Below are positions 17,194 through 52,455 of a stretch of 64,000 bases of DNA, piece after piece. The first letter of the stretch is position 1. Each line of letters starts with the position of its first letter. The stretch comes from Chloroflexota bacterium (lineage in GTDB: Bacteria > Chloroflexota > UBA11872 > VXOZ01), in contig OZ244814.1 in the NCBI GenBank assembly GCA_965220175.1, forward strand, positions 1,735,045 to 1,799,044, given 5' to 3'. Both the position numbers and the translations under genes were made by a program. A model generated the notes under the pieces. That model ran no database searches. It saw only the letters and a list, made by a program, of their open reading frames with translations, and was not told the DNA's origin.

Positions 17194-17447
17194 GGCAACT
17201 GCCTCCAATCTCAGTGGTGCCCCGGTCCTGCAATAGCAGCCAGAGAGACCACTCTTGTTTGCGCCGCTATTCCTGCAGGTAGGACGCTTTCAAGAACGAG
17301 CAAGGCCGTACAGTGAGGATAGCACAGATTCGACCGCTCCCTCTGCCGCGAAGTATGTTATATACTACGGGTTGTCAGCACTGCAAGCCGTCTTATGCAA
17401 AAGGCAATGAGGCTCAGAGCCGAATAGCTGGAATGGAAGGTGGTCGC

Positions 17448-32127: not shown

Positions 32128-32637
32128 GTGGTACTGATCCGCAAACAGCAGTCTGCCGACATTCCCCAGATTCGAGAGGTCAACACGCGGGCCTTCGGCC
32201 AGCCCGATGAGGCAGATCTTGTAGACAAGCTCAGAGAACGCTGTCAGGATCTGGTGGAATTGGTGGCGGTTTTTGGCGACGAGATTATCGGGCATATCGT
32301 TTTCAGCCCAGCCACCGTCGAGTGCGAGGAACGAACGGTAACCGGAGCAGCCTTGGGACCCATGGCCGTGATGCCTCGGCATCAAAGGCAAGGGATCGGC
32401 ACCAAGCTGGTAACAAGCGGCGTCTCACTCCTGCAGCAGAATAACTGTCCGTTCCTGGTTGTCATCGGGCATCCGGATTTCTATCCTCGATTTGGGTTCA
32501 GGCCGGCGAGCCGGTTCGGTGTTCAATGCGACTGGGACGTTCCCGATGCGGTCTTCATGATGATGGTCCTCGCTGAGGAGGAGATGCAGGGAGTCGGGGG
32601 AAGGGTCAAGTTCAGGCCGGAGTTCTCGCAAGCCTGA
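32128..32637 (+). CDS. GNAT family N-acetyltransferase
   Basis: RHQRQGIGTKLV acetyl-CoA binding motif A (Q/RxxGxG/A). Confidence 0.7.
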   Translation: MVLIRKQQSADIPQIREVNTRAFGQPDEADLVDKLRERCQDLVELVAVFGDEIIGHIVFSPATVECEERTVTGAALGPMAVMPRHQRQGIGTKLVTSGVSLLQQNNCPFLVVIGHPDFYPRFGFRPASRFGVQCDWDVPDAVFMMMVLAEEEMQGVGGRVKFRPEFSQA

Positions 32638-32797
32638 CAGTCCACGACTTTCCTTTCTGCCTTCTTTCATCCTGCAGGATCCTGGACATCCCAATGCGAG
32701 GCTTTAGTGAGGAATGCCGCCAACCGCCGGCATGGTGCGGACGGGGAGCCAAAGGGCGAATCGCAGTCTCTTCAGAACTACATGGTGTTTACTCTCA

Positions 32798-33553
32798 ATG
32801 AAGCTTGACCAACGATTGCGCGCCCAGTGGTCGGAACACGTACAAGACTGGATTCAGCAAGACCAGTCAGTGCGCACCGGCATGCTCGATTCCTGGATGC
32901 TGGAGGCACTGGGAGATGTGTGCGGCCGCAACGTGCTCGACATCGGGTGTGGGGAGGGGCGTTTCTGTCGTGTCTTGAGCGGTCTGGGCGCCTTGGTCAC
33001 GGGTGTTGATCTTACTGAGCCATTGATTGAGCAAGCGCGTGGACTGGCTGGCGATGCCGGGACGTATCTCGTAGGCAATGCTGAAGACCTCGCCGGCATA
33101 GATGACGACAGTTTTGACCTGGCTGTGTCCTACATCGTCCTGGTGGACGTGCTCGACTATCGGCGGGCAATTCAGGCCGCCTTTCGCATACTGCGGCCGG
33201 GTGGGCGCTTCATCGTGTGCAATGTTCACCCTATGCGCATGGCCAAACCCAATGGCTGGGTCAAGCTCGGCGATCGCAAGCTCTTCTACGCCGTAGATGA
33301 CTACGCTGACGAGGGATCCCGGGAGTTTGAATGGTGGGGCGCCAACTTCATCAACATGCACCGGACGCTGTCAAGCTATATTACGGCTTTCTTGGATGCT
33401 GGCTTCGAGCTCGAGAGTCTGCTGGAACCAACGCCATCCGACGACCAACTCACTGCGATTCCCTGGCTAGCCGATGAGTTCCGTGTGCCTAACTTCGTCA
33501 TTTATGCGCTGCGGAAGCCTTTGGCCCAGAGGAATCCCACTCCCAAGGATTAA
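32798..33553 (+). CDS. class I SAM-dependent methyltransferase
   Basis: motif I VLDIGCGEGR, motif II/post-I acidic residue, ~250 aa; ATG 32798. Confidence 0.75.
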   Translation: MKLDQRLRAQWSEHVQDWIQQDQSVRTGMLDSWMLEALGDVCGRNVLDIGCGEGRFCRVLSGLGALVTGVDLTEPLIEQARGLAGDAGTYLVGNAEDLAGIDDDSFDLAVSYIVLVDVLDYRRAIQAAFRILRPGGRFIVCNVHPMRMAKPNGWVKLGDRKLFYAVDDYADEGSREFEWWGANFINMHRTLSSYITAFLDAGFELESLLEPTPSDDQLTAIPWLADEFRVPNFVIYALRKPLAQRNPTPKD

Positions 33554-34101
33554 CGCGTTACGTGATTGGCTGCAGACCAGGTTGGCCGGCCTAGCGGTGG
33601 CTCTCGGCGCAACGCACCGCCTAGACCGGTGCATCCCCGCCGCACCATTTTCGATGTCCCTCTACACCGGGTCATCATTGATAACCCCTGCGTTCAATCT
33701 AGACCTGCCTTGACCCGCCATGGATTCGACCACGCGTACTCCTCACCTGCTGCTTCAATCTCGTGTCTTGTTTTGAGAGTATGGGAACGTGTGGCGGTTG
33801 CTCTGAGCAAGGCAAGATGCTTGACGAGTGCTATTTCGTGCTATACCATGGGGCTGCGGTCAAGGAGGACCGTCCCAAACGTCAACACCGAAGGACGTTG
33901 AACATCGGGTAAGGAGGTTGCGCCAAGAACCGACTTTCTAACGTGTTTGCCGTTGCTCGTTCCGGTCTCTGCAGGAAGTAACAAGACGGTGCTGCTGCGG
34001 TGTCGTCAATTTGGCAAACCACCGTGGAGGCATGCGGGCTCGAGTTGCGGTCGTTTTGGGCGCTTGAGAAAGCGATTGTGAGAACCCTGGAGGTCGATCC
34101 A

Positions 34102-34296
34102 ATGAATAAAGGAGATTCTGTTTCTAAGCGAGAGGAAACAGTCTCCGCCGATCCGGAAAACGCGGATCCGGTCGGCGGTGAGTTGACCGAAGACGAATTG
34201 GACGAAGCCGTTGGTGGAGTTGGGAGTGATGAGCAGCCTCCTCAGTCCCCCGGCGAAGGCTCTGGCAGAGGTTGGTGGCACGATCCGAACGACTAG
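34102..34296 (+). CDS. secreted-peptide/RiPP-like precursor with double-glycine leader (64 aa)
   Basis: MNKGDSVSKREETVSADPENADPVGG-ELTEDELDEAVGG | VGSDEQPPQSPGEGSGRGWWHDPND; leader matches L(-12)-S/T-x-x-E(-8)-L(-7)-x-x-hydrophobic(-4)-x-G-G(-1); GGAGG RBS 8 nt before ATG; gene immediately precedes HlyD and C39-ABC exporter genes; alternative in-frame GTG start at 34000. Confidence 0.6.
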   Translation: MNKGDSVSKREETVSADPENADPVGGELTEDELDEAVGGVGSDEQPPQSPGEGSGRGWWHDPND

Positions 34297-34318
34297 GCTC
34301 ATCCTCGCAAGAGACTTG

Positions 34319-34363
34319 CAGGTACGATGGGATTTGCAGGAAACCCATCGTACCTGTTTTTTT
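34319..34363 (+). terminator. rho-independent terminator after precursor gene
   Basis: caggtacgatggg-(12-nt loop)-cccatcgtacctg perfect 13-bp stem followed by TTTTTTT, 22 nt after precursor stop. Confidence 0.75.
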
Positions 34364-34827
34364 GCCTGGCTGATAGAGGCAGCAGTATCTCGCTCCATGG
34401 GCGGCAGTGAGACTGAATAGCAGTTAACAACGCTGGGCGCTCGCACACTCACGAGTGCCGGCAACACAGGGTCCTCATAGCCAGCGTTAGGGGGTGCAGT
34501 CAAGGCCGTGCCGGACGGCTCAGATTGACGCCAGCCGGGAGCTTTACATGCGGACTGTGAGATCGGGCACATGCTGCTTGGCGCAACCTTAGCGCACACC
34601 TGCCGCGGCAAGCCCTGGTTCGCCAGTTCTTGCATGACCACGGAGACTGCGTCGCCGCTTCGAATTCCGAGCAAAACTCCGCGTGCACGAAGCACAGAAT
34701 AGGCAATAGGCAATTGGGTGCCTGCAAGACCGTGGCTGCCGAAGTCTCTTCCGTTCCGTCTGCGGCCAGCTTTACGCTAGAATAGCCCTCATACTGCGGT
34801 CAGCCTCGTAGACAAGAACCTGGAGCG

Positions 34828-35724
34828 GTGACGGTGACGGACAATCGTCGTCTCTTTCGTGAGGAAGCGCTTGCCCGCAGAGGCAAGTCCGAGTCTCTCA
34901 ATGGTCTGCTACGGGTTTCGGGGCCCCACGAGTGGATACTGCTGGTTTGCCTGGGTCTGGGTGTCTTGGGGTTCGTGGTCTGGGGGCTCTTCGGTAGTGT
35001 TGAGGAGAGTGTTCCGGCACGATGCGTGTTGGCACTGCCAGGAGATCGCTATGCGGTGATCGCTGAGTCCGCAGGCACGGTCGTGGATCTCCTGGTGGAT
35101 GCCGGCGACACGGTTGCTGCGGGGCAGCCTCTTGCCAGGCTCAGGTCACCGGAGCTGGGGCGAGAGATTGCGATTGCCCGCTCTCGGGTAGATTACCTGG
35201 AAAGCAAAGATACGACAACGTCCGAGGCCCTTGACGTGGCGCGGTCTGAGTTGACCGAGCTGGAGGCACGCGAGTCATTCGGCGAGTTTCTGACTACGCC
35301 TTACAGCGGTGTAGTTTCTGTCTACGAGTTATCCATCGGTCAGGCGGTTGCTGTTGGCGCCACGGTGGCGAGTGTCCGCGTTGCCGATCGGAACGAGTTC
35401 GAGGCGGTTGCCGTACTCTTGCCGGAGCGCGCACTGCGCCTTGCCGTCGGCATGGAGGCACGGGTGATGGCAATGGGACGTGACGGGGGAAGGAGTGCAG
35501 ACGCCCTCGAGGCCGAGGTGAGCTACGTAGCGCCGCATGCCGCCAGGCTGCCGCACTGGCTGACAGCCCTCGGATTCGCCGACGTCTCCCGCGGCTACAT
35601 TGTCTACTTGGCACTGCACGAGAGCCAAGATGCAACGTTTCAAGACGGCGATCCGTGCGAAGTGCGGATCATCCTGCGCAGAGCCTCACCTGTGCGCATG
35701 CTACTTGCGTCCGCGACCAATTAA
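34828..35724 (+). CDS. HlyD-family membrane fusion / secretion protein (NHLM-type)
   Basis: N-terminal RRLFREEAL + single TM, biotinyl-lipoyl-like hairpin, short coiled coil; GTG start (34828 or 34834 after GGAG). Confidence 0.7.
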   Translation: MTVTDNRRLFREEALARRGKSESLNGLLRVSGPHEWILLVCLGLGVLGFVVWGLFGSVEESVPARCVLALPGDRYAVIAESAGTVVDLLVDAGDTVAAGQPLARLRSPELGREIAIARSRVDYLESKDTTTSEALDVARSELTELEARESFGEFLTTPYSGVVSVYELSIGQAVAVGATVASVRVADRNEFEAVAVLLPERALRLAVGMEARVMAMGRDGGRSADALEAEVSYVAPHAARLPHWLTALGFADVSRGYIVYLALHESQDATFQDGDPCEVRIILRRASPVRMLLASATN

Positions 35725-35738
35725 GGCGGCTTTGAGGT

Positions 35739-37934
35739 ATGCCAGCGAGCGCTGCGGCGAAGCCAACGAAGAAGCGCATTCGCACGCCTCTCTTTCCACA
35801 GCTTGAAACGTCGGAGTGCGGCGCCGCCTGCCTGGGCATTCTGCTCGCCTACTTCGGTCGCTGGGAGTCGATGGAGACGCTGCGCGAAGCATGTGGAGTA
35901 AGCCGGGACGGCACCAGCGCAGCGGACATTGTACGGGCAGCGAGAAAGTTCGATCTGGAGGTCACGGGCTGGCGGCGAGAAGTCAGCCAACTAAAAGAAA
36001 TCGCTTTGCCCGCTGTTCTCTTCTGGGAATTCAATCATTTCCTGGTTCTCGAAGGAGTGAACAACGGGCAATATTTCTTGAATGACCCTGCCAATGGCCG
36101 GCGCAAGGTGAGTGAAGAGACTCTTGACCGGTCGTTTACGGGCGTCGTCCTTACGGCGAAGCCAGGGCCGAACTTCCGTCAAGGCGGCGCTCCGCCCGGT
36201 GTCACGCGCGAGCTCTTTGCGTGGTTGACAGATGTCAAGTCGCCTCTCGCATTTGTCTTAGCGTGTGGGTTGCTCCTGGCACTGCCAGGTCTGTTTCTCC
36301 CCATTCTTCTGAGCCTATTCGTTGACTATGTTCTTGACGGTGCGGGGAGGAATTGGGGGGCCTACCTTGTCACCGCCGCGGCTGTGACCGGTGGTCTTGC
36401 GTATCTTCTCACCTGGCTCCAGCAACACGCCTTGCGCAGACTAGCCGTTAGACTCTCGGTCGTTCACGCAGAACGCATGCTTTCGCGTCTATTCCGGCTG
36501 CCCATCGAATTCTTCGCGCACCGCTATGCGGGCGATCTGACGGCCCGGGTTCAGTTGATCAACGAGGTAACCAACGGCTCGTCGCGCCACTTCGTCGGCA
36601 TCATGATAGAGCTCGTCACGAGCGTGCTATTCCTGGTACTGATGGCCTTATTCGATCCATTGCTCGCCGCAGCCATTGGAGTCCTCGGTGCCGCGAACCT
36701 CGCACTCATGCGTATCCTGAGCCGGTTCCGCAGCGACGAGAATCGCCAGTTGCGGCGCGAGCAAACACTGCTCTTCGGTACCGGCGCGTCAATTCTTCGT
36801 GACATTGACTCTATGCACGCGACTGGCAGCGAGGACGATTACTTTGCGCGCTGGTCAGGGTACCAAGCGCGCGAGCTCATAGCTAGGCAGAAATTCGCGG
36901 AGCTCGGCTATATCATCGCGTCACTGCCGCGGTTTTTCTTGATACTTGGTGGCGTACTCGTGCTGGGACTCGGTGGTTGGCGCGTCATGTCCGCTGACAT
37001 GACGATCGGCATGCTCATGGGATTCTATGTGATTGCCGGCAATTTCCTGCAACCGATTGGCAGGTTCGTCCAGTTTGCCGACACGCTTCAAGTCCTGGAG
37101 GCCGACCTGCAGCGCATAGCAGACATTATGGCGGCACCCGAAGACCCCGCCCTTGCAACGAATGGAGATGCTGGGAACGGCAAGTTGGCGACACTGGGAG
37201 GCCGGTTGCACTTAGCGGGGCGGGTCGAGTTGCGCAATGTAACGTTTGGCTATCACCGCAACCGTCCGCCGCTTATCGAGGATTTTAGCCTCACCATCGA
37301 ACCCGGCCAACGGGTCGCGCTGGTCGGCCCTACAGGATCGGGGAAGTCGACACTCCTAAAGCTGGTTAGCGGCGAGTACTCACCGTGGTCGGGTGAAATC
37401 CTCTTCGACGGTGTGCCGCGCAACAGAATTCCGCGAGAGATACTCACGCGTTCAGTCTCGATTGTGGACCAGCAGGTATTCCTGTTTGCTGCATCGGTAC
37501 ATGACAATCTGACGATGTGGAACCCAACAGTGCCTGACGAACAGGTGGTGAGGGCCGCTCAGGACGCGTTGATTCACAGTGAGATAATGGGCCGGGAATT
37601 CGGCTATGACACGAGAGTGGAGGAGAGCGGAAAGAATTTCAGCGGCGGCCAGCGTCAGCGCTTGGAAATCGCTCGCGCCCTTGTTGACAATCCTTCCGTG
37701 CTCTTTCTCGATGAAGCTACCAGTACGCTTGATGCCGTGAGTGAGATGCGAATTGACGACAGTTTGCGGCGGCGCGGGTGCACCTGCATAATCGTCGCTC
37801 ATCGCTTGAGTACCATCCGCGATTGTGATCAGATTGTCGTGCTCGATCACGGCCGGCAGGTTCAATGCGGTACGCATGAGAGTCTCTTGGGCGATGAGCA
37901 GGGCCTTTACTACCAACTTATCCAAGCGCAATGA
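35739..37934 (+). CDS. ABC transporter with N-terminal C39 peptidase domain (bacteriocin-processing, ABC1)
   Basis: C39 catalytic Cys in LETSECGAACLGILLAYF and His in WEFNHFLVLEG, 6-TM domain, Walker A GPTGSGKST, signature FSGGQRQR, Walker B VLFLDEATS. Confidence 0.85.
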   Translation: MPASAAAKPTKKRIRTPLFPQLETSECGAACLGILLAYFGRWESMETLREACGVSRDGTSAADIVRAARKFDLEVTGWRREVSQLKEIALPAVLFWEFNHFLVLEGVNNGQYFLNDPANGRRKVSEETLDRSFTGVVLTAKPGPNFRQGGAPPGVTRELFAWLTDVKSPLAFVLACGLLLALPGLFLPILLSLFVDYVLDGAGRNWGAYLVTAAAVTGGLAYLLTWLQQHALRRLAVRLSVVHAERMLSRLFRLPIEFFAHRYAGDLTARVQLINEVTNGSSRHFVGIMIELVTSVLFLVLMALFDPLLAAAIGVLGAANLALMRILSRFRSDENRQLRREQTLLFGTGASILRDIDSMHATGSEDDYFARWSGYQARELIARQKFAELGYIIASLPRFFLILGGVLVLGLGGWRVMSADMTIGMLMGFYVIAGNFLQPIGRFVQFADTLQVLEADLQRIADIMAAPEDPALATNGDAGNGKLATLGGRLHLAGRVELRNVTFGYHRNRPPLIEDFSLTIEPGQRVALVGPTGSGKSTLLKLVSGEYSPWSGEILFDGVPRNRIPREILTRSVSIVDQQVFLFAASVHDNLTMWNPTVPDEQVVRAAQDALIHSEIMGREFGYDTRVEESGKNFSGGQRQRLEIARALVDNPSVLFLDEATSTLDAVSEMRIDDSLRRRGCTCIIVAHRLSTIRDCDQIVVLDHGRQVQCGTHESLLGDEQGLYYQLIQAQ

Positions 37935-37965
37935 TCCAGGATAACCACAACCGGGGAAGACTCAC

Positions 37966-40881
37966 GTGACGCAAAGACGATTCCAGCGGCTTGGCGAACT
38001 TGCAGTTTCAATTGGAGAACCGGTCTCCAGCGCCGGTAACCTTCCCATCCACTTGGACGATCCGGGTTCTGCCTGGTTCGTAGAGCGAGGCGCACTGGAT
38101 GTGTTTCTTTTCGAGTACCAGGATGAAGTGCCCATCTCTCGCTCGAAGCACATTCTCCGAGCTGAGCGCGGCCGGATGGTATTTGGAGTTGGAAAGTGCG
38201 GAATCTTCGCGGCGGTCGCCAAGGGCAGCCCGGGTTGCATGCTGCGGCGCGTAAGCATCGACCGTGTCCTCCAATATGAAATCGTAGACCAGTTGGCCGG
38301 TCAGATCGATGCGTGGGTCGCGGATTTCGCAGCCGCAGTGGCACTTCAGATTGAACCGCGCCCTCGACCCGACCTATTGCTTGATCACAGAGTGCCTGCC
38401 GAAGCGCTCGACGCAGCGGACGGCACAGTGGTGTCGAGCCGGCCTGGTGGGGTGGTGTGGGTCAATGTAGGCAATGCCGACGCGGCCTACTTGGGGACGG
38501 AAGAGCGAGACTCCGCGGGCGCCGGCGTGATACCGGTGACGTCCGATACCTGGCTCACGCTGCAGAGCCCGGCGCAAGTCTCGGGCAAGACGTCCCGCGC
38601 GTTGTGCATGGACGGGATACTGCTTGCGGCTCTCACCGACTTTCACCGGCTTGTCCTCGGAGCCGAGAAGATCAACCGCCTCTTGCTGCTGGCCGACGAG
38701 GCAAACGAGCAGACCGCCCTCGCCTTACATCGGCAACGTGACGAGGAACGTGCGAGACAGGGCCTCTTTGGCGTCCTTGGTTCCTCCCAGGCGGCGGTAG
38801 AAGAAAGCAACTCCGCGCTTTTGGCGGCCCTGCGCATCATTGGTGAACGAGAAGGCATTGCGTTTCAGGCTCCAACTCGCCGGCGGACATCGGATGGTGA
38901 GGAATTCGCTCTACAGGAAATCCTGGAAACATCGGGTGTGCGCAGCCGCAAGGTAAATTTGACGGCAGATGAATGCTGGTGGCTAGGAGACAGCGGCGCA
39001 ATGCTGGGCTTTCGGCGCGAGGACGGACATCCAATCGCGCTGCTACCGAGTGAAAGTGGGCGCTATAGGGCGCTGGACCCGATTTCCGGAGATTCTACCC
39101 GCCTCAATGCAGGCCGGGCAGCCGCAATTCACCACGACGCTTGGCAGTTCTACCGCTCCTTCCCGGTTGACCGTCCGGTAGGTACCCAGGACATTCTGGC
39201 ACTAGCCGCTAGGGGTGTGTCCGGTGACCTTATGCGGTTTGCGGGGGCCGGCCTCATCGCGAGCGTACTCGCCTTAGCTCCCGCGCTTGCGATCGGGCTT
39301 CTGGCGGACTCGATTCTGCCCGCGGCAAGCATCGGCATGTTAGTCCAGATTACAATCGCTCTCATCGTTCTTGCGGTTGTGGGCACGTTCCTGCAGATGC
39401 TGCGGGGGACGGCCATGATGCGGCTGGAAGCACGTGCCGTTGCGCGGGTGAGCGCGGCACTCTGGGACCGCTTGCTGTTGCTCCCTCCAAGTTTCTTCAG
39501 AGGCTTTACTGCAGGCGACCTCGCCGTGCGCATGGCGGCAATCCAAGTGCTGCGCGACCAGGTTTCGGGCGTGGTTGCCAACGCCGTAATCTCGTTTGCT
39601 TTTCTGCTCCCGTTGCTCATCATCCTCTTTATCTATGACACCGCTTTGGCATGGTTGATTCTCGGCACCGGGATGGTCTCGCTTGCCGTTACTCTGGTGT
39701 TCGGTCTCTTGCAAATTGGACCACAGCGTCGACTCTATGCCGTCTCCAGACGTCTCACCGGCGAGCTGTTCCAATATGTAAACGGCATCAGCAAGCTCCG
39801 GTCGGCCGGGGCCGAAGCGTCGGCGTTTGCGTCGTGGGCGCGGGGCTACCGCGAACAGCAGGTGGCGCAACTACAGATAGGCAAGCTCAATGAACACCTG
39901 GTCGCGTATAGCGCGGCGATTCCCGCTCTCATGGCTGCCGCCATCTTCGGCGTTGCCCTGTGGCAGGGCATTGACCGGCTCGAATTGGGGAGTTTTCTCG
40001 TCGTCTATGCGGTTTCCATCCAGTTCTATACAGCAGTAATCGGACTGGGCTACTCATTTGAGGTCATGGCGGCAGTCTTGCCGGGCTACGAACAGATTAA
40101 GCCGGTGACAACCGCCGTTCCTGACGGCCGCGGGGCTCACCGCGCGTCCGTCGAACTCAGCGGCGAAGTGCGATTCGACCACGTGAGTTTCCAATACGCC
40201 AAGGAAGGTCCGCGGATCATCGATGAAGTCTCTGTGCGCGCGCGTCCCGGCGAGTTCATCGCCATCGTCGGTGAATCAGGCGCAGGCAAAAGTACACTGG
40301 TGCGCCTGGCGCTGGGGCTTGAAGTCCCAACAGCGGGGGGAATCTACTATGACGGTCGCGACCTTGCCCATCTCAATCGACGGGCCGTGCGCCGCCAGAT
40401 AGGTGTCGTGACCCAGGATGGCGCCCTCAGGCCCGGCAACCTCCTGGACAACATCATCGGTCTTGGGGACGATTTGACGATCGATGACGCTTGGCGCGCG
40501 GCCAAACTTGCCGCCGTGGATGGCGACATCGCCGCTATGCCCATGCAGATGTTTACCGCGGTAGGCGACAGAGCGTCCACCTTCTCCGGCGGGCAAATTC
40601 AACGCATCAGGATTGCGGCAGCCCTCGTGCGGGAACCGCGCATTGTCTTTCTGGATGAGGCCACGAGTTGGCTCGACGCCAAGAGCCAGGCCCAGGTCAT
40701 GGAAGGCATTGAGAAGCTCGCCGCCACCCGCATAGTCATCGCCCACCGGCTCTCCACTATCCGCAAGGCGCAGCGCATCTACGTGCTTCACCAGGGAAGG
40801 GTGGTACAGGAGGGCAGCTTCATCGAGCTCTTCCAGACGGAAGGCCTCTTTCGAGACCTGGTGCAACGGCAAATGACGTAA
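37966..40881 (+). CDS. ABC transporter ATP-binding/permease with ~420-aa N-terminal cNMP-binding-like extension (ABC2)
   Basis: N-terminal beta-roll-like segment (FVERGALDVFLFEY...RGRMVFGVG), 6 TM, Walker A GESGAGKST, signature FSGGQIQR, Walker B IVFLDEATS; no C39 domain. Confidence 0.8.
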   Translation: MTQRRFQRLGELAVSIGEPVSSAGNLPIHLDDPGSAWFVERGALDVFLFEYQDEVPISRSKHILRAERGRMVFGVGKCGIFAAVAKGSPGCMLRRVSIDRVLQYEIVDQLAGQIDAWVADFAAAVALQIEPRPRPDLLLDHRVPAEALDAADGTVVSSRPGGVVWVNVGNADAAYLGTEERDSAGAGVIPVTSDTWLTLQSPAQVSGKTSRALCMDGILLAALTDFHRLVLGAEKINRLLLLADEANEQTALALHRQRDEERARQGLFGVLGSSQAAVEESNSALLAALRIIGEREGIAFQAPTRRRTSDGEEFALQEILETSGVRSRKVNLTADECWWLGDSGAMLGFRREDGHPIALLPSESGRYRALDPISGDSTRLNAGRAAAIHHDAWQFYRSFPVDRPVGTQDILALAARGVSGDLMRFAGAGLIASVLALAPALAIGLLADSILPAASIGMLVQITIALIVLAVVGTFLQMLRGTAMMRLEARAVARVSAALWDRLLLLPPSFFRGFTAGDLAVRMAAIQVLRDQVSGVVANAVISFAFLLPLLIILFIYDTALAWLILGTGMVSLAVTLVFGLLQIGPQRRLYAVSRRLTGELFQYVNGISKLRSAGAEASAFASWARGYREQQVAQLQIGKLNEHLVAYSAAIPALMAAAIFGVALWQGIDRLELGSFLVVYAVSIQFYTAVIGLGYSFEVMAAVLPGYEQIKPVTTAVPDGRGAHRASVELSGEVRFDHVSFQYAKEGPRIIDEVSVRARPGEFIAIVGESGAGKSTLVRLALGLEVPTAGGIYYDGRDLAHLNRRAVRRQIGVVTQDGALRPGNLLDNIIGLGDDLTIDDAWRAAKLAAVDGDIAAMPMQMFTAVGDRASTFSGGQIQRIRIAAALVREPRIVFLDEATSWLDAKSQAQVMEGIEKLAATRIVIAHRLSTIRKAQRIYVLHQGRVVQEGSFIELFQTEGLFRDLVQRQMT

Positions 40882-41091
40882 TTGGACAGTCTGTGAACAC
40901 TGCTGGGCAACACGACAAGTGGCCACTGTGCCAGCACTCGAGGTCGCGAATTGGACTTTCAGATTACGCGGCGCCAAGTTGCCAAAGCCGTAAGCAGCGC
41001 CTGCGCCGCATAACGCATGGAGCCATTTGGTGAGCGGGTGCGCGGTTCACTGCCAATGCGTCCGCGTCAGCCTACGTTGAAGGCACGTATA

Positions 41092-42927
41092 TTAGGCCGT
41101 TACCTTGAGACACAAGGTCACGGGTGTGCCGGCGGCAAGGTCCACCGTGGCGGCACGTTGGCGTCGACTTTCGAGCGTTACCTGCCGGATGGGCAGCGCC
41201 GCACCTGAACTCTTGTCATTCACGGAGGCAACACTGTCAGGCAGCAGCAACGAAAGCTCGGAGATGTTGGCGCCGGATTCCAGCGTGATGAAGTGGGAGT
41301 CGCCTTGGGCATAGGACTCGGTCAGGCGCACGCCCGCGCGGGCGCGGGAGAAACTGGAGTAGTTCTCCTGGTTTTCGAAGCGGCAGCCGGCTGCAATTGC
41401 CCCTTCCATGCCCAGCTCCAGGGCGTGGCGCGAGGCTCTGACGTGGTCCTGGGGCCCGGCAGCGTAGACCGGATGGAAGTTCGCGATCTGCATCACGTGC
41501 CAGCGGGTGGCCGCGGATTCGGCAAAGCGGGCGAGTTCCACGCCGTATTCCTCTGACGTGAGGCCCACCATGCCTTCGGCGCGGTCGGGTGTCTCGGCCA
41601 TTGGCCCAGCCAGCAGGTCCTCGTGCCGGCCGATGGTCTGGCTCTCGTCCCATTGGGCGGGCATATGCCACATTTCCGTCAGACCCACGCCGTGCTGGAA
41701 ATACGGCATGCAGAGGCCGGTGCCGATCATGTAGGGGCCGTAATTCTTGTCGCGCCGCATGCGGGGGTCGTGGGAAGCAAAGTGGGTCGGCGTATACCAG
41801 CCGAAGTCCAACATGATTTGTATGAGCGGATAGCCCGTCCACTGGCAGCCGTGGCTGCAAATGGTCTCCACGTCGAGGCCGGTTTCGCGGCGAAATACGT
41901 CCCAAGATTCCTGCAGGTTGGCGCGTAACGCCGGTAGGTAATTCTCGTTCAGGTCCTCCGGCGTGCGGCCGTAGCGTACCTGGGCGCCGTTCTCTTCTAT
42001 GGCGTACTGGGTGATGCTGGTCAAGTCCACTTCGATTGACACGGCATGACCGCGCGCGTGCCACTCTTTCATCAAGTCGCCGTGATAGCGGCTGAACGGC
42101 GCCCGGTAGAAGGTAAGCAGCGCGTCGTACGATTCCACAATGTCCACGAGCACGGGCGCGCCACTTTCGCCGCAGCCGTCACCCTTAATGAACCACAGCG
42201 CCGGCGCCGCGTCGGGGAAGTACCACAGGCGCGGCAGCGGTGTGTCCGACAGCGCTTCCGCCACCAGGGTCCGGAGGATGTCCTGATGGACGTCCGCCAC
42301 CGGGATATCCCGGGTGGTCTTCTCTGAGAGAGCAAAGAAACTGTAGAGGTGGCGCGGGCCTTTCAGCGGTCCCATGTCGCGCAGGGGACGTTCGTGTAAG
42401 TCGCCGTCTCCGTGTCGAAAGTTGACAACAGCCTGGCAAAGGTCGTAGCCGTAGAGCCAGGCCTTGCCCTCGCCCAGATAAGCCTCAACGATGCCGGGGC
42501 CAATAAGGTTGTCCTCAGCATCTCGCAGCTCCGCGACCGTCTCGCCGCCGTTCAAGGGCTGAGATATCTCATCCGGGCAGAGCAGCGGCAGGCTCCCATG
42601 TTCCCATCGTGGGAGCTGCCGGACTGCAAGCCACGCGTCCGTCACCGGCTCGCCTGCCGTGATGCCGAAGGCGCCTAGCAGAGCGGGATCGGGAGCCAAG
42701 GCGATAAGCGAAGTGCCGCCGGCCACCGCCGCAGCCAGCCGCTCCGCTGACTCGTTGCTCAGACCGCTGCCGGCGATAACAATGAGTGCTACGTCCGGCG
42801 GCGGGTCTTCGAAGTCGGCCGCAGCTTGCGCATCCAGCCAGGGAAATCCCTCACAGCGGAGGATTTCCGCACTCACCGGGGTAGTAAGCGCATCGTCGGC
42901 ATACAGGAGCAGGATGGGCTGATTCAT
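41092..42927 (-). CDS. hypothetical protein (612 aa; N-terminal flavodoxin/ThuA-like alpha/beta region, C-terminal unknown)
   Basis: no diagnostic motif recognised; start placed at MNQPILLLYADD (cat 42925-42927) 10 nt after C45 gene stop. Confidence 0.45.
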   Translation of the reverse strand: MNQPILLLYADDALTTPVSAEILRCEGFPWLDAQAAADFEDPPPDVALIVIAGSGLSNESAERLAAAVAGGTSLIALAPDPALLGAFGITAGEPVTDAWLAVRQLPRWEHGSLPLLCPDEISQPLNGGETVAELRDAEDNLIGPGIVEAYLGEGKAWLYGYDLCQAVVNFRHGDGDLHERPLRDMGPLKGPRHLYSFFALSEKTTRDIPVADVHQDILRTLVAEALSDTPLPRLWYFPDAAPALWFIKGDGCGESGAPVLVDIVESYDALLTFYRAPFSRYHGDLMKEWHARGHAVSIEVDLTSITQYAIEENGAQVRYGRTPEDLNENYLPALRANLQESWDVFRRETGLDVETICSHGCQWTGYPLIQIMLDFGWYTPTHFASHDPRMRRDKNYGPYMIGTGLCMPYFQHGVGLTEMWHMPAQWDESQTIGRHEDLLAGPMAETPDRAEGMVGLTSEEYGVELARFAESAATRWHVMQIANFHPVYAAGPQDHVRASRHALELGMEGAIAAGCRFENQENYSSFSRARAGVRLTESYAQGDSHFITLESGANISELSLLLPDSVASVNDKSSGAALPIRQVTLESRRQRAATVDLAAGTPVTLCLKVTA

Positions 42928-42937
42928 AGCAGATTCC

Positions 42938-43999
42938 TCAGTTTCTAACTGCGGTTGCCTGGGCATCGAAGATGAACACTTCAAGATCATTCTGGCAAGG
43001 GTAACCGTCACTCGCGAGCAATGTGCGGTCGCGAGGGATGGCTATCAGGCCAAACGCACTATGCATTGGCCCGTGCTGGCACATTGAGACCGGGTCGGCG
43101 TGGGCGCGTGCGATGCGCGCGACTTGCTCCAGGGTATGGGGTTCTTCCTGGGTGAGCTCTGCCAGCAGCGCCCAGCGGCCTTCAGTGTTGGCGCGAAAGT
43201 CAGCGTTTGTTCGACTGTCGACGTCCTGCATTTCAGGCGTCACATAGTGGTTCGCGCACCAGATGGCGTCGCCTTCCATCCGCCGCACCGCCATGCGGGT
43301 GGCTGACCTTTCTACCACTACCGCGTTCTCCGCCGGATCGGTGAGCATGATGTTCATGCCGTGGTTCATGACCGGCGTACTCTCGCAGAGGGCGATGCCT
43401 TCTTCCACGTCGGCGCAGTACTGCAAGAGGTAGCGCTGCAGGAGATTAGTTGGGATGCCATTCTCCCAATCCTGGTCGGAATTCATGATGCTGCTGCCGC
43501 CAAAGGTCAGGCCGGTGTCGTTGACGCCCGGCCCCATCCAGGGCGCGCCCGGACCGGAGACGCAGATGAAGGGGTGGCCCTTATCGGGTCTGATGTCCCA
43601 GAAGACGTAGGTGCCGATGGAATCCTTGCCCACGTCATTGGACTTGTAGTGCACGACACCGTGCTCGTCGGTGCGCAGGGCTACGTTCGTGCAGCCTACG
43701 GCGGTGCGCCCGACCTCCATGCAAGATGCGTATGCCAGAATGTCATCGCGCTGTAGTCCCGCGCCGTCGGCGATACCCTGCATTTCCTCAAGCGATTCAG
43801 GAAAGACTCGCTCGACGTTGCGCGCCATTTGTTGGACAACACGTTCGCGATGGGCAGCGTCGATTTGCCTCCCAAAGACCACGTTCTCGATTGCGGAATT
43901 CACGGCTGCGGCACAGGTAGTGCCATGCTGCAATCCCATTTCGTAAGGAGTGCCGGATAACTCAACGCGGCGCATGGCTTCGTAATCCTTTACTAGCAT
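42938..43999 (-). CDS. C45-family Ntn-hydrolase / acyl-CoA:6-aminopenicillanic-acid-acyltransferase-like protein
   Basis: Gly-Cys autoproteolytic site context (RTAVGCTNVAL) with Cys nucleophile, overall length and secondary pattern of linear-amide C-N hydrolase / IAT family. Confidence 0.6.
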   Translation of the reverse strand: MLVKDYEAMRRVELSGTPYEMGLQHGTTCAAAVNSAIENVVFGRQIDAAHRERVVQQMARNVERVFPESLEEMQGIADGAGLQRDDILAYASCMEVGRTAVGCTNVALRTDEHGVVHYKSNDVGKDSIGTYVFWDIRPDKGHPFICVSGPGAPWMGPGVNDTGLTFGGSSIMNSDQDWENGIPTNLLQRYLLQYCADVEEGIALCESTPVMNHGMNIMLTDPAENAVVVERSATRMAVRRMEGDAIWCANHYVTPEMQDVDSRTNADFRANTEGRWALLAELTQEEPHTLEQVARIARAHADPVSMCQHGPMHSAFGLIAIPRDRTLLASDGYPCQNDLEVFIFDAQATAVRN

Positions 44000-44143
44000 T
44001 CACAGTGTGCGGTCCATTGCACACTGGGCCTGCTGCTGAAATGCGATTTTGTTCGGGTCTCTCACCCTCACGCCGGCCCTCTCCCTCGGGGAGAGGATGC
44101 AGACGGAGAGTTCGGCAATGCGAAAGCATGCATTGGCACGATA

Positions 44144-45109
44144 CTATGCGTGTCGGATGCGCTCGAAGTAGTTGCACGGGATGATGTTTAGCGGCCCAAA
44201 ACGGCGCTCGATTTCGTCGTAGAAGAGGTTTATGCCCAGGTTGTCCGCCGCGGCATGCGGCAGGCGCACCACCGAAACGCCGACTTCCTTTGCCGCGCTC
44301 GCCACGGCCGCGGACGCCCCAATCTGCAGCACGGTGTTGATCCCGGCCTTAGCGAACAGTGGTTGTGCTGCCGGCGGCCAAAGCCACCCACCGGCATCTT
44401 GGATGATGTAACGGCCCAATGGCGTATCCGGTTCTCCCGCGAGTACCAAAGAGTACGCGCCGTGGCGCGCGGCGCCCTGGAATTCCGGAATCGTCATCAG
44501 CGCTTCTTCAGCGTCGGCGAGTGTCTGCGGCTGCAGCTCGTCGAATACCTGCTTAATGCCTACACCGATATAGAGATCCTGGGGTGTGTGAATCTGCACA
44601 AAGGGGATTTCAAAGAGCCGCGCCATATCCGGACCCATGCGGTGCGGCATGTCGTCGTAGCCGGTGCGCCAATCATCTATCCACGGCAATAAGACCTTTT
44701 CCGCCTCTTTGCGCGGTACACCCTCACGGACAAAGATGTCGATGTTGATGAGGGTGATGTCGTCAATATGCGAACGGCCGATGCCCGTGCCGCTCGTATG
44801 GTGGGCAATGATGGCGTCGAGCGGCACGCCCTTGTCCTTGAGGCGGTCGGCAATGAGGAATTCGTCCGTGCCGATGTTGATGCCCGCGAGGGCGGTGTAG
44901 ACCTCAGCATCTTCGGGGCCGTTGACGATACGCACGTCGCCGTAGGGATTACGCAGGCGCTCGTGGTCGAAGTACGGCTTCTTCCACTCAGGCAAGGCTT
45001 CGAATTCTTGCTGGCGACGCGCAAGTTCAGCGTCAAGGGTCTCTTGACTGCGGGGATCGAGGGCGATGCCGAGTTCTATGGCGGCTTCGTAGAGTTCGCG
45101 GACAGTCAT
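44144..45109 (-). CDS. Nif3-like (DUF34) dinuclear-metal-centre protein, with N-terminal extension
   Basis: GVPLDAIIAHHTSG resembles the conserved Nif3/YbgI A-D-A-V-I-V-H-H motif; C-terminal LPHAAADNLG weakly matches second His cluster. Confidence 0.4.
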   Translation of the reverse strand: MTVRELYEAAIELGIALDPRSQETLDAELARRQQEFEALPEWKKPYFDHERLRNPYGDVRIVNGPEDAEVYTALAGINIGTDEFLIADRLKDKGVPLDAIIAHHTSGTGIGRSHIDDITLINIDIFVREGVPRKEAEKVLLPWIDDWRTGYDDMPHRMGPDMARLFEIPFVQIHTPQDLYIGVGIKQVFDELQPQTLADAEEALMTIPEFQGAARHGAYSLVLAGEPDTPLGRYIIQDAGGWLWPPAAQPLFAKAGINTVLQIGASAAVASAAKEVGVSVVRLPHAAADNLGINLFYDEIERRFGPLNIIPCNYFERIRHA

Positions 45110-47144: not shown

Positions 47145-48323
47145 TTAGAGTGTGGAAACGGAATACGCATGCTGCGGCACGATGCGTCGCTCTTGGCTAA
47201 AGCGTGCCGGATTAAACAATGTAATGTCAAACTGTGTACTGTGGCCGGTCAGCAATTGCTCTGCCAGCATCTGACTGAAGATGGGGCTTAGCTTGAAGCC
47301 GTGGCCGCTCAGCCCCACGGCCAAGTGCAAGCCCTGTACGTCGGGCACCGCGCCAAGCAAGGGCTGGAGGTCCGGCGAACAGTCGTAGAGGCCGGAAGTC
47401 GCGCCATTGACGGCGGGGGCCCCTTGATTTGGGAACCGCTGCCCGTAACGGTTGGCAAGAGTCTGCAGCACGTCCGGACGCGCGGCAGGGAATTCGTCCA
47501 CGTGCGGATCTTGCTCGCCGTCGTAGGGAGCCGTCTTGCCGACCATCGTATGTCCGTCCTCGCGGGGACGATAGTAGCTTCCCGAAACGCGGTCGGAGAT
47601 TATCGGGTGAGGCTTGCCAAAGCAATCGGCCCTCTGCAATATCCCCACGACGTGCCGGATCGGCGTAAGGGGAAGCTCAATGCCAAGGGGCGCGACGAGA
47701 CCGCGAGACGAGAAGCCATTGGCCACGATGACGGATCGGGTGGCAATGTGCCCGGCGTTCGTCTCAATCCCGGTGATGCCGCTGGCGTCGGCAACCAGCC
47801 GTTCGGCACCCACGCCAATGCGCAATTCCGCTCCGCACCGCCGCGCGGCATTGGCAAAGCTGATGGTCGTGCGCACGGGGTCCGCGTAGCCCGATTCCGG
47901 CTCCCAGGCGGCGGCGCCGATGCCAAAGAGGGCCAGACGCGGCTCTATTTCTTGGATTTCATGCGGCGAAAGTATGTACGTGTTGATGCCGAGGTCGCGG
48001 TGCATGGCAACATTGGCCGCCACGGTGTCAACATCATCCGGCCCGAGAAGAGCGAGGAAACCAGGCTGGCGATAACCCGCATCGCCGCCAACCTCGTCTG
48101 CGAAATTCTCAAACACTTGCCGCGCGCGCAAGGCCATGCGCGCCAATGTCTCGTGGGTATAGTGGGTACGCACAATGCCGGCAGTAACGCCGGTGGCTTG
48201 GGCCGCGAGACCGCGCCTTTCGAGGAGGATCACCCTGCCTGCGCCCATTGCTGCCAGTCGCCAGGCAATGCTGGTACCAGTGCTGCCGCCGCCTACAACG
48301 ACAACGTCTGCGGTCTCGGCCAT
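47145..48323 (-). CDS. FAD-dependent oxidoreductase (DAO family; sarcosine-oxidase-beta/glycine-oxidase-like)
   Basis: ADVVVVGGGSTGTSIAWRLA dinucleotide-binding fold, C-terminal HGFKLSP; GGGAGG RBS. Confidence 0.8.
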   Translation of the reverse strand: MAETADVVVVGGGSTGTSIAWRLAAMGAGRVILLERRGLAAQATGVTAGIVRTHYTHETLARMALRARQVFENFADEVGGDAGYRQPGFLALLGPDDVDTVAANVAMHRDLGINTYILSPHEIQEIEPRLALFGIGAAAWEPESGYADPVRTTISFANAARRCGAELRIGVGAERLVADASGITGIETNAGHIATRSVIVANGFSSRGLVAPLGIELPLTPIRHVVGILQRADCFGKPHPIISDRVSGSYYRPREDGHTMVGKTAPYDGEQDPHVDEFPAARPDVLQTLANRYGQRFPNQGAPAVNGATSGLYDCSPDLQPLLGAVPDVQGLHLAVGLSGHGFKLSPIFSQMLAEQLLTGHSTQFDITLFNPARFSQERRIVPQHAYSVSTL

Positions 48324-48389
48324 AGTTCCCCTCGCCTCCCTCATAATTGCGTGCCGAAGGGTCTCTCTTTGAACCCGGCGCGCCTCCGA

Positions 48390-52273: not shown

Positions 52274-52349
52274 GCAGATGAACTCCGTGCAAAGAAACGG
52301 AACGGTGCACCTATTCGTGCGAACTCTAAGACCTGCCTTGAGAGTGAAC

Positions 52350-52455
52350 GGCTCTGCTAGATCCGCCCTTCGACCCTTCGACAAGCTCAGGACAGGCAGG
52401 CTCAGGGCGAACAGAATAGGCAAGTCGCCGTTCGTGCTGAGCAAATCTTCTGTCG
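52350..52455. repeat. dispersed REP-like element, family 1, copy 2 (inverted)
   Basis: cccttcgacaagctcagg...ctcagggcgaacag is reverse complement of the 10.03 kb module; followed by gccgttcgtgctgagc...gtcgaagcacgaa inverted repeat. Confidence 0.45.

What the first reader, a model, noticed from the sequence alone, without database searches (positions are those of the whole stretch)
34102..40881. Stand-alone precursor peptide plus NHLM-type three-gene exporter with no co-encoded modification enzyme
What is seen: a 64-codon gene, its own strong terminator, then HlyD, an ABC transporter with an N-terminal C39 cysteine-peptidase domain (Cys and His recognisable), and a second ABC transporter lacking C39 but carrying a ~420-aa cNMP-binding-like N-terminal extension. 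Established knowledge: this HlyD + C39-ABC + second-ABC trio is the transport module described for nitrile-hydratase-leader/Nif11-type microcin-like precursors (the NHLM_micro HlyD/ABC1/ABC2 TIGRFAM trio; from memory TIGR03794/03796/03797, numbers not verified). The leader C-terminus ELTEDELDEAVGG closely resembles the LSDEELEAVAGG box of those leaders. Unusual: the leader N-terminal part is short and unrelated to NHLP/Nif11. There is one precursor only, with no LanM, cyclodehydratase, radical SAM or ATP-grasp gene anywhere in the operon. So either the product is an unmodified exported peptide or it is modified in trans by unlinked or non-canonical enzymes.
Basis: partly seen in the sequence, partly recalled or inferred. 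Interest (0 to 1): 0.8.

Follow-up and report, generated by a model that had tools for sequence, protein, structure and literature searches.

The report
Exported double-glycine peptide with dedicated transporter
A Chloroflexota genome carries a small, well-conserved gene for a secreted 25-residue acidic peptide next to its own three-protein cut-and-export machine; the machine is a known type, but the peptide family is new and seems to need no neighbouring modifying enzyme.

Summary
A 64-codon gene (34102-34296) with an RBS and a strong terminator precedes a separate operon. The operon encodes a short HlyD-like adaptor, a C39-peptidase ABC transporter (TIGR03796, above cutoff; Q21/C27/H100/D116 present) and a second ABC transporter (TIGR03797, above cutoff). 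The peptide is a real gene: about 15 homologues and dN/dS 0.13-0.36. It hits no NHLP or Nif11 model.

Two corrections. The second transporter does not simply lack C39. By fold it has two cNMP-binding-like modules followed by a Cys-less C39-like domain. The HlyD scores below its family cutoff because its helical hairpin is cut to about 30 residues.

In an unrelated genomic background (L012) the same peptide family again sits beside the same trio. The flanks there are not homologous and no modifying enzyme is present. In L003 the four-gene cassette is inverted between the same flanks. So the module is self-contained.

Across lineages the core is conserved (invariant G, WW, PN; C-terminal GWWx[D/N]PNx) while leaders diverge.

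This architecture is already described: the Haft 2010 trio and the Wang 2011 "group V" cyanobacterial clusters. Verdict: a new peptide family in a known kind of export system. Whether the peptide is modified is unresolved. Moderate-to-low interest.

The parts
33911..33970 (+). Conserved upstream block about 190 nt before the peptide start. It contains a palindrome (GGTT-N-AACC, or GTTAC-N6-GTAAC in relatives). Candidate promoter/operator of the peptide gene.
   Evidence: The block AAGGAGG..TCTA..CCGTT is invariant across window, L001, L003, L004 and L006. It travels with the cassette in the L003 inversion. It occurs once in the window. Function is inferred.
34089..34093 (+). Ribosome-binding site GGAGG, 8 nt before the ATG
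   Evidence: Read from the sequence. Conserved in L001, L004 and L006.
34102..34218 (+). Leader peptide, residues 1-39, ending ELTEDELDEAVGG (Leu-12, Glu-8, Leu-7, Ala-4, Gly-2, Gly-1)
   Evidence: EDEL.EAVGG is invariant among the Chloroflexota homologues. The GG pair is invariant in all 15 sequences.
34219..34296 (+). Core peptide VGSDEQPPQSPGEGSGRGWWHDPND (25 aa, 2691.7 Da average, net charge about -4, no Cys) plus the stop codon
   Evidence: Invariant G41, W58, W59, P62, N63 across lineages. dN/dS of the whole ORF is 0.13-0.36.
34319..34363 (+). Intrinsic terminator: 14-16-bp stem followed by T7
   Evidence: A hairpin is retained at this position in relatives, with compensatory changes in L004 and a wholly different stem sequence in L003. 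L012 also has a hairpin plus T-run after its peptide gene.
34776..34785 (+). Invariant GCTAGAATAG, a -10-like box about 45 nt before hlyD. Candidate promoter of the transporter operon.
   Evidence: It is the only conserved island in an otherwise unconserved ~520-nt spacer. It occurs once in the window. Function is inferred.
34828..35724 (+). HlyD-family membrane-fusion protein, short form (298 aa; the real start is probably the second GTG at 34834, giving 296 aa). One N-terminal TM helix (residues 32-59). The alpha-helical hairpin is reduced to about 30 aa.
   Evidence: TIGR03794 scores 87.1 bits, below the 156.2 cutoff, and matches profile positions 6-113 only. Pfam HlyD_3 and HlyD_D23 hit. 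Alignment with the 415-aa L012 homologue places the deletion in the hairpin. TM helix. Start codon by comparison with L001 and L004.
35739..37934 (+). ABC1: peptidase-containing ABC transporter (C39 domain residues ~17-145, then TMD and NBD)
   Evidence: TIGR03796 scores 895.6, above the 853.3 cutoff. The C39 domain matches LahT150 (6MPZ) at 2.9e-37. Q21, C27, H100 and D116 are present and invariant in 6 homologues. The protein is full-length collinear with PCAT1 4RY2. Walker A/B, signature and H-loop are canonical.
37966..40881 (+). ABC2: second ABC half-transporter. Residues ~17-272 form two CNB/CRP-effector-like modules plus a long helix. Residues ~283-400 form a C39-like domain without Cys. 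Residues ~422-695 are the TMD and ~735-971 the NBD.

Best explanation
This is a self-contained, four-gene 'make, cut and export' module for a new family of double-glycine-leader peptides.

The 64-aa precursor is transcribed on its own, with its own RBS and terminator. The adaptor and the two ABC half-transporters form a separate operon just downstream.

Proposed mechanism:
- The last 13 leader residues (ELTEDELDEAVGG) dock into the C39 domain of ABC1, which cleaves after Gly39.
- ABC1 and ABC2 most likely work as a heterodimer. It would have one active peptidase domain (ABC1) and one inactive C39-like domain (ABC2), the latter serving as a substrate-holding or regulatory module.
- The two cNMP-binding-like modules of ABC2 probably gate export in response to an unknown small ligand.
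- The short HlyD-like protein is the accessory adaptor. Its missing hairpin fits an organism with no TolC-type outer-membrane partner.

The released product is a 25-residue, strongly acidic, Cys-free peptide. Its functional part is the conserved C-terminus GWWx(D/N)PNx.

No modifying enzyme belongs to the module. The most likely reading is that the peptide is exported without leader-guided modification and acts outside the cell as a signal or effector, not as a classical cationic pore-forming bacteriocin.

Shown here: gene reality, family assignments, catalytic residues, domain folds, and module conservation and autonomy. Inferred: the heterodimer, ligand gating, cleavage site, modification state and biological role.
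For: Gene reality:
- 9 close homologues and 5 more distant ones.
- dN/dS 0.13-0.36.
- Stops in the other + strand frames, and an antisense ORF that is conserved only where it shadows the peptide gene.
- RBS and terminator are conserved.

Transporter identity:
- TIGR03796 and TIGR03797 score above their curated cutoffs.
- The C39 domain is closest to LahT150, with Q21/C27/H100/D116. LahT's triad is Cys27/His101/Asp117, and it needs only the last 13 leader residues, with Leu-12, position -7 and position -4 in hydrophobic pockets (PMC6363468).

Module autonomy:
- L012 carries HlyD-ABC1-ABC2-peptide with unrelated flanks (ClpB; DUF5723; MetK) and no enzyme. Its ABC2 is 32% identical over its full length, and its HlyD passes TIGR03794 at 234 bits.
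- In L003 the cassette is inverted between the same flanking genes. L001, L002, L004, L020 and L021 keep the four genes together.

No modifying enzyme:
- Pfam survey of the window's large ORFs. The stretches 24771-25958 and 47145-52444 were read from precomputed Pfam on the L001/L003 homologues.
- UbiA is heme o synthase and the methyltransferase is generic.

Other support:
- The core is conserved while leaders diverge. That argues for selection on the product, not on an enzyme-recognition leader.
- Heterodimer: Wang 2011 report natural ABC1-ABC2 fusions ('group VII') derived from group V (PMC3140520).
- Ligand gating: the cNMP domain of the related PCAT HetC is essential and binds ppGpp in vitro (PMC10986499).
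- A sister system of the same transporter subtype (L008: short HlyD, long ABC2) is followed by two bona fide NHLP precursors ending LSEEELEKAVGG and LTEAELAQAAGG. This ties the transporter subtype to this leader box.
Against: - No expression, cleavage or export data exist for this system.
- NHLM-type trios are classically linked to modified peptides, and enzymes can be unlinked. Invariant WW and PN residues could equally be enzyme recognition or crosslink sites.
- Only the 64-kb window and up to 10-kb flanks of relatives could be inspected, not whole genomes.
- Three neighbouring proteins have no family assignment (639 aa at 41092-43011; 321 aa at 44144-45109; 468 aa at 17313-18719).
- In another lineage (L009-L011, L015, L018) the peptide gene sits without any transporter nearby. 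So physical linkage to the trio is not universal.
- The heterodimer and ligand gating rest on analogy. Both NBDs are canonical, so homodimers are not excluded.
- Profile-profile comparison of the ABC2 C39-like region with the ABC1 C39 domain was not significant. That domain call rests on predicted structure only.
Confidence: 0.7

Rival explanations
1. The peptide is a true RiPP. Its tailoring enzyme(s) are encoded elsewhere in the genome and act in trans before ABC1 removes the leader. Candidates are a Trp-directed halogenase, radical SAM, P450 or prenyltransferase, or an Asp/Asn-directed enzyme.
For: - NHLM trios were defined by association with modified-peptide precursors. Haft et al. stress that precursors and enzymes are often unlinked (PMC2887384).
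- Nine of 16 cyanobacterial lanM genes lie away from the other biosynthetic genes (PMC3140520).
- The invariant core positions G41, W58, W59, P62 and N63 could mark modification sites.
- Marine sponge microbiomes carry cross-phylum RiPPs with conserved cores and Trp bromination, for example the srp LCCCW core (bioRxiv 10.1101/2023.06.09.544420).
- The sister system L008 exports NHLP peptides with W/N-rich cores.
Against: - The long NHLP or Nif11 leader domain is absent.
- The leader N-terminus is not conserved between lineages, while the 13-residue export box is.
- Three independent genomic contexts share no candidate enzyme within 10 kb.
- The core lacks Cys and has few Ser/Thr.
Confidence: 0.25
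2. The flanking genes modify the peptide, so the cluster is larger than four genes. Candidates are the class I methyltransferase (32714-33553), the GNAT (32128-32637), the C45 acyltransferase/hydrolase (42938-43999) and the unknown 639-aa protein (41092-43011).
For: These genes flank the cassette in every Chloroflexota locus seen. In L003 the 611-aa and C45 genes lie upstream of the peptide gene and point the same way.
Against: - The flanks have no homologues next to the L012 module.
- The cassette inverts independently of them, while their order with argH and heme o synthase stays fixed. That indicates plain synteny among close relatives.
- The peptide gene has its own conserved upstream block and terminator.
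Confidence: 0.04
3. The small ORF is not the transporter's substrate, or is not a gene. The trio would then export peptides encoded elsewhere.
For: In the P0025/P0026 lineage the peptide gene is unlinked to any transporter. The HetC-type PCAT has no known neighbouring substrate.
Against: - The ORF is under purifying selection.
- Its leader box fits perfectly.
- It is adjacent to the trio in two unrelated genomic backgrounds, with different gene order.
- It is the only such box in the related 3.38-Mb chromosome.
Confidence: 0.03

Closest known systems
NHLM 'microcin' export trio of Haft, Basu & Mitchell 2010 (TIGR03794 HlyD / TIGR03796 ABC-peptidase / TIGR03797 ABC)
   Same: Three adjacent genes in the same order. 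ABC1 and ABC2 pass the equivalog cutoffs. The precursor is adjacent, and its 13-residue box matches the published logo: acidic at positions 1/4/6, Leu at 2/7, Ser/Thr at 3, Gly-Gly at 12-13.
   Different: The precursor is neither NHLP nor Nif11; it gives no TIGR03793 or TIGR03798 hit. The HlyD is 298 aa, scores below cutoff and has a truncated hairpin. ABC2 carries about 280 extra N-terminal residues. The host is a Chloroflexota MAG.
'Group V' cyanobacterial bacteriocin gene clusters (Wang, Fewer & Sivonen 2011, PMC3140520)
   Same: HlyD, a short-type C39 ABC transporter and an additional ABC transporter with CAP_ED-type N-terminal domain(s) but no active C39. There are double-glycine precursors and no LanM. 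CAP_ED modules occur in tandem in that group.
   Different: Here the CAP_ED-like modules are too diverged for Pfam and are seen by fold only. There is a single precursor with a conserved, Cys-free, acidic core. The phylum is different.
LahT / PCAT1 / ComA peptidase-containing ABC transporters (PDB 6MPZ, 4RY2, 3K8U)
   Same: ABC1 aligns full-length with PCAT1. Its C39 domain matches LahT150 at 2.9e-37 with the same Cys27/His/Asp geometry in sequence.
   Different: Those transporters are homodimers with two active peptidase domains. Here a second, peptidase-dead partner with sensor-like domains is co-encoded.
HetC of Nostoc PCC 7120 (PCAT with an N-terminal cNMP domain that binds ppGpp; PMC10986499)
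   Same: A cNMP-fold module is fused N-terminally to a (pseudo)peptidase-ABC exporter of a presumed signalling peptide.
   Different: HetC keeps an active C39 in the same chain, has no neighbouring adaptor and has no known substrate. Here the sensor-like modules sit on the peptidase-dead partner, and the substrate gene is adjacent.
HlyB C39-like domain (PDB 3ZUA)
   Same: It is the best structural match to ABC2 residues 275-400. It is a Cys-less C39 fold in an ABC exporter.
   Different: HlyB exports a large RTX protein with a C-terminal signal and has no active-peptidase partner.

Membership tests
NHLM-type export trio (TIGR03794/03796/03797) | ABC1 scores above the TIGR03796 equivalog cutoff | tested here: met
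   895.6 bits against 853.3
NHLM-type export trio (TIGR03794/03796/03797) | ABC2 scores above the TIGR03797 equivalog cutoff | tested here: met
   724.5 bits against 709.4, over residues 283-970
NHLM-type export trio (TIGR03794/03796/03797) | The adaptor scores above the TIGR03794 equivalog cutoff | tested here: not met
   87.1 bits against 156.2, with only profile positions 6-113 matched. It is still the best-scoring family. The orthologous position in L012 passes at 234.4 bits. The shortfall is explained by deletion of the hairpin.
NHLM-type export trio (TIGR03794/03796/03797) | An associated precursor of the NHLP (TIGR03793) or Nif11 (TIGR03798) leader family | tested here: not met
   No NCBIfam or Pfam hit at E<=0.01 for the peptide, P0023 or P0025. 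Positive control: the L008 precursors hit TIGR03793 at 59.8 and 63.6 bits. Only the 13-residue C-terminal box is shared.
Peptidase C39 (active bacteriocin-processing domain) | Catalytic Cys and His, plus oxyanion Gln and Asp, at the aligned positions | tested here: met
   Q21, C27, H100 and D116 align to LahT150, ComA and PCAT1 and are invariant in 6 homologues.
Double-glycine (GG) leader peptides | Gly-Gly at -2/-1 with hydrophobic residues at -4, -7 and -12 and Glu at -8 | tested here: met
   L28(-12), E32(-8), L33(-7), A36(-4), G38-G39, read from the sequence. GG is invariant in 15 sequences. Actual cleavage was not tested.
Group V cyanobacterial bacteriocin cluster (Wang 2011) | HlyD, a short C39-ABC, an extra ABC with CAP_ED but no active C39, and no LanM | tested here: met
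RiPP biosynthetic gene cluster | A co-encoded post-translational modification enzyme acting on the core | tested here: not met
   No LanM, YcaO, ATP-grasp, SPASM radical SAM, halogenase or P450 in the window. The only radical SAM is HemN-like at 18817-20016. None is shared between L012 and the window flanks. Unlinked enzymes could not be tested.
Class II bacteriocin / class II microcin locus | An adjacent immunity gene and a cationic or hydrophobic membrane-active mature peptide | tested here: not met
   No small hydrophobic ORF is conserved in the cassette; the spacer is unconserved. The mature peptide is hydrophilic with net charge about -4. Activity was not tested.
GG-pheromone quorum-sensing locus (ComC/BlpC type) | An adjacent histidine kinase and response regulator | tested here: not met
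   No HK or RR domains among the window ORFs scanned or in the L012 flanks. A distant receptor is not excluded.

The most novel reading that the evidence does not exclude
The GWWx(D/N)PNx peptides are a conserved extracellular signal or effector shared across distinct bacterial lineages of marine, possibly sponge-associated, communities. Three divergent versions of the module occur in one metagenome sample (L003, L020, L012). Release would be gated by a metabolite-sensing, peptidase-dead ABC partner. On this reading the system is a non-RiPP, non-bacteriocin peptide communication channel in uncultured Chloroflexota, with the product, not the leader, under selection.
Probability: 0.15. Interest if true: 0.6.

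Novelty: new member of a known kind. Interest (0 to 1): 0.35.

Why it matters
- It adds a defined substrate to a transporter subtype whose substrates are mostly unknown: a C39-ABC paired with a sensor-bearing, peptidase-dead ABC.
- Here the substrate gene, cleavage box and exporter are all adjacent and conserved. That makes it a tractable system for asking what the C39-like and cNMP-like domains of the second transporter do.
- It gives a small, easily synthesised 25-mer to test for activity.
- The peptide family reverses the usual RiPP pattern, with a conserved core and a drifting leader. That points to a specific target.
- It does not change what is known about how such systems work.

Tried and rejected
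1. Hidden gene or RNA in the 520-nt spacer between terminator and hlyD. The spacer is unconserved apart from a -10-like box, and L006 has a deletion there. Rfam finds nothing.
2. Antisense 235-aa ORF at 34006-34713. Its similarity in distant loci is confined to the shadow of the peptide gene.
3. The GTG-34000 start. The upstream extension is not conserved; L003 has only 7 upstream codons.
4. Inverted repeats flanking the cassette that could explain the L003 inversion. None was convincing.
5. Homology between the window's downstream neighbours (639 aa and C45) and the L012 neighbours (685 aa and DUF5723). None was found.
6. A homologue in the window of the NTF2-like protein that follows the peptide gene in the P0025/P0026 lineage. 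None was found.
7. Sequence-level proof that ABC2 residues 275-410 are C39-like. BLASTP and hhalign were not significant, and PDB sequence searches were empty. Only the fold searches succeeded.
8. Lasso, graspetide, PatS (RGSGR) and srp (LCCCW) resemblances. These were judged by eye and rejected. There is no Asp/Glu at core positions 7-9, the motif differs, and none of the required enzymes is present.
9. The metagenome-contig scan added one more P0026-type locus (L018) and one chance hit inside a 667-aa protein (L017).
10. The afdb50 fold library was unavailable.


Full report
**What is in the sequence**

The window is 59.8% G+C. Its nearest sequenced relative is a 3.38-Mb Chloroflexota MAG chromosome, OZ244803.1.

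At 34102-34296 lies a 64-codon ORF preceded by GGAGG. The product is MNKGDSVSKREETVSADPENADPVGGELTEDELDEAVGG|VGSDEQPPQSPGEGSGRGWWHDPND.

It is followed by a 14-16-bp perfect hairpin and seven T (arms 34319-34334 and 34341-34356). The surrounding 86 nt fold at -39.1 kcal/mol, z -6.45. The generic terminator scan missed this hairpin because of its loop length.

After a ~520-nt spacer come three tightly spaced genes:
- a HlyD-like gene, 34828-35724
- ABC1, 35739-37934
- ABC2, 37966-40881

**Is the small ORF a gene?**

Yes.
- A 5.8-billion-protein search found nine homologues at 56-88% identity.
- An exhaustive profile search of 1.84 billion cluster representatives added five more distant homologues.
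- Nei-Gojobori dN/dS between divergent loci is 0.13-0.36.
- The other + strand frames carry stops.
- The long antisense ORF is conserved only where it shadows the peptide gene.
- The upstream GTG-34000 extension is not conserved.
- RBS and terminator are conserved. The terminator keeps its structure through compensatory changes in L004 and through a completely different stem sequence in L003.

**The transporter**

NCBIfam gives TIGR03796 at 895.6 bits (cutoff 853.3) for ABC1 and TIGR03797 at 724.5 bits (cutoff 709.4) for ABC2.

ABC1:
- It is collinear with PCAT1 over its full length.
- Its C39 domain is closest to LahT150 (6MPZ, 2.9e-37).
- Gln21, Cys27, His100 and Asp116 are in place and invariant in six homologues.
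- LahT's triad is Cys27/His101/Asp117. Its recognition motif is the last 13 leader residues, with Leu-12, position -7 and position -4 in hydrophobic pockets (PMC6363468).
- The peptide offers Leu-12, Glu-8, Leu-7, Ala-4 and Gly-Gly.

The HlyD-like protein:
- TIGR03794 is its best match, but at only 87.1 bits against a cutoff of 156.2.
- Alignment with the 415-aa homologue of L012, which passes at 234 bits, shows why. The alpha-helical hairpin is about 30 residues instead of about 108.
- The same short form (295-298 aa) occurs in all Chloroflexota loci and in L008.
- I infer that this fits a cell envelope without a TolC-type partner.
- Comparison with L001 and L004 suggests the real start is the second GTG, at 34834.

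ABC2:
- The TIGR03797 model begins only at residue 283.
- Pfam and PDB sequence searches of residues 1-430 find nothing.
- An AlphaFold model built from ten homologues has pLDDT 79.
- A separate model of residues 275-410 (pLDDT 83) has the HlyB C39-like domain 3ZUA as its top Foldseek hit and PCAT1 at TM 0.62.
- By inspection, the position of the catalytic Cys is Ala.
- Profile-profile comparison with the ABC1 C39 domain was not significant. This domain call is therefore structural only.
- Both NBDs have canonical Walker A/B, signature and H-loop motifs.

**Is the module self-contained?**

Closely related Chloroflexota loci:
- L001, L002, L004, L020 and L021 keep peptide-HlyD-ABC1-ABC2 together. 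One flank is argH, heme o synthase, GNAT and methyltransferase. The other is an unknown 611-639-aa protein and a C45 acyltransferase/hydrolase.
- In L003 the four-gene cassette is inverted between the same flanks.
- A conserved ~60-nt block about 190 nt upstream of the peptide start moves with the cassette.

A different genomic background, L012:
- It has a full-length HlyD and its neighbours are ClpB, DUF5723 and MetK.
- It carries HlyD-ABC1-ABC2(976 aa)-peptide. The peptide again has its own RBS and terminator.
- ABC2 aligns over its whole length at 32% identity.
- The flanking proteins are not homologous to those of the window.
- No modifying enzyme is shared.

Other contexts:
- A Pfam survey of the window's large ORFs found only housekeeping genes. 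The stretches 24771-25958 and 47145-52444 were read from precomputed Pfam on the L001/L003 homologues. The single radical SAM is HemN-like, 14 kb away.
- In a third lineage (P0025, P0026, L018) the peptide gene lies without any transporter within 10 kb. It is always followed by a 133-aa NTF2-like protein that has no homologue in the window.
- A fourth context, L019, is uninformative.

**The peptide family**

- Across all 15 sequences the invariant positions are Met1, the Gly-Gly pair, Gly+2, Trp-Trp and Pro-Asn.
- The consensus core is xG[ST]xDEQxPQxxxxGSGxGWWx(D/N)PNx, ending at the C-terminus.
- The leader N-termini diverge between lineages.
- The peptide hits no NCBIfam or Pfam model. Two genuine NHLP precursors from L008 do hit TIGR03793.
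- L008 carries the same transporter subtype (short HlyD, long ABC2). Its precursors end LSEEELEKAVGG and LTEAELAQAAGG, which links this transporter subtype to this leader box.
- The mature 25-mer weighs 2691.7 Da (average), has net charge about -4 and contains no Cys.
- Only one gene with this box was found in the window. Only one was found in the entire related chromosome.

**Transcription units**

- The spacer between terminator and hlyD is not conserved, apart from an invariant GCTAGAATAG (34776-34785) about 45 nt before hlyD.
- Rfam finds nothing in the spacer.
- I infer a monocistronic peptide transcript plus a separate three-gene transporter operon.

**Comparison with the literature**

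- Haft et al. 2010 defined the trio by phylogenetic profiling with NHLP/Nif11 precursors. They argued that the conserved leader box reflects handling by the transporter, not by the modifying enzymes. They also noted members in species without identified enzymes (PMC2887384).
- Wang et al. 2011 catalogued twelve 'group V' cyanobacterial clusters. These have HlyD, a short C39-ABC and an extra ABC with CAP_ED but no C39 peptidase domain, and no LanM. They also described 'group VII', in which the two ABC proteins are fused, which is Rosetta-stone support for a heterodimer (PMC3140520).
- The cNMP domain of the PCAT HetC is essential and binds ppGpp in vitro (PMC10986499).
- So the architecture and the absence of a linked enzyme are not new. 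The peptide family, the hairpin-less adaptor and the Chloroflexota setting are new.

**Mechanism and verdict**

The best-supported reading is a dedicated processing-and-export module. ABC1 cleaves after Gly39. ABC1 and ABC2, probably as a heterodimer, export the 25-mer together with the short adaptor. The cNMP-like modules of ABC2 probably regulate export.

The pattern of a conserved core with a drifting leader, the missing NHLP/Nif11 domain, and three enzyme-free contexts favour export without leader-guided modification. Modification in trans remains a live rival at about 0.25.

The acidic, hydrophilic product and the absence of immunity, kinase or regulator genes argue against a classical bacteriocin locus or a ComC-type locus. 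The biological role is unknown.

This is a new member of a known kind of system, and interest is moderate to low.

Noticed in passing
L008:14313-14588 and L008:14752-15018: Two canonical NHLP precursors sit next to the same transporter subtype. Their very short cores, VDVNWNTVNIS and GNAWNWQTT, are rich in W and N. From memory, the W-N-W motif recalls the darobactin core WNWSKSF. No radical SAM gene was called nearby.
   Followed up: partly
L003 (whole locus) compared with window 33900-41090: The four-gene cassette is inverted between identical flanking genes in one relative. No flanking inverted repeats were found that would explain this.
   Followed up: partly
window 33911-33970: A conserved upstream block contains a palindrome (GTTAC-N6-GTAAC in L004 and L006; GGTT-N-AACC in the window). 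It looks like a regulator-binding site for the peptide gene. No regulator gene was identified.
   Followed up: partly
window 16330-17208 (-) and 52714-54126 (-): An ankyrin-repeat protein and a sulfatase. From memory, these gene types are enriched in sponge symbionts, and relatives include a MAG named SB0662_bin_44. The host or source could not be verified.
   Followed up: no
L010:7370-7804, L015:2845-3246, L018:4244-4645: In the lineage where the peptide gene has no transporter nearby, it is always followed by a conserved 133-aa NTF2/SnoaL-like protein. Upstream, on the opposite strand, are a hydrolase, an enoyl-CoA hydratase and two nitroreductase genes. Any link to the peptide is unknown.
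   Followed up: partly
L012:9815-9895: A small ORF, MSGKKEAMKIIPPPRKHRSRGGGRGT, with a strong RBS lies between ABC2 and the peptide gene in the second lineage. There is no counterpart in the window.
   Followed up: no
window 41092-45109 (-): A conserved trio of an unknown 611-639-aa protein (weak DUF4350 hit), a C45-family autoproteolytic acyltransferase/hydrolase and an unknown 321-aa protein. It is followed by a solute-binding protein, a DAO oxidase and hydantoinase A/B, so it is probably a catabolic cluster. Function unknown.
   Followed up: partly
L003, L012, L020, L021 (all from sample ERZ25069412): One metagenome sample contains at least three divergent versions of the module: two Chloroflexota arrangements and the L012 lineage. 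Many ABC2 homologues in these long-read assemblies are split by frameshifts (P0010-P0018).
   Followed up: no
L019:688-972: A family member (P0021) whose ORF reads through past the usual C-terminus (…GWWNDPNDNWLAAG…). It lies on a 1x-coverage contig next to a PIN toxin and SbcCD-like genes. It may be a decayed copy or a sequencing error.
   Followed up: partly
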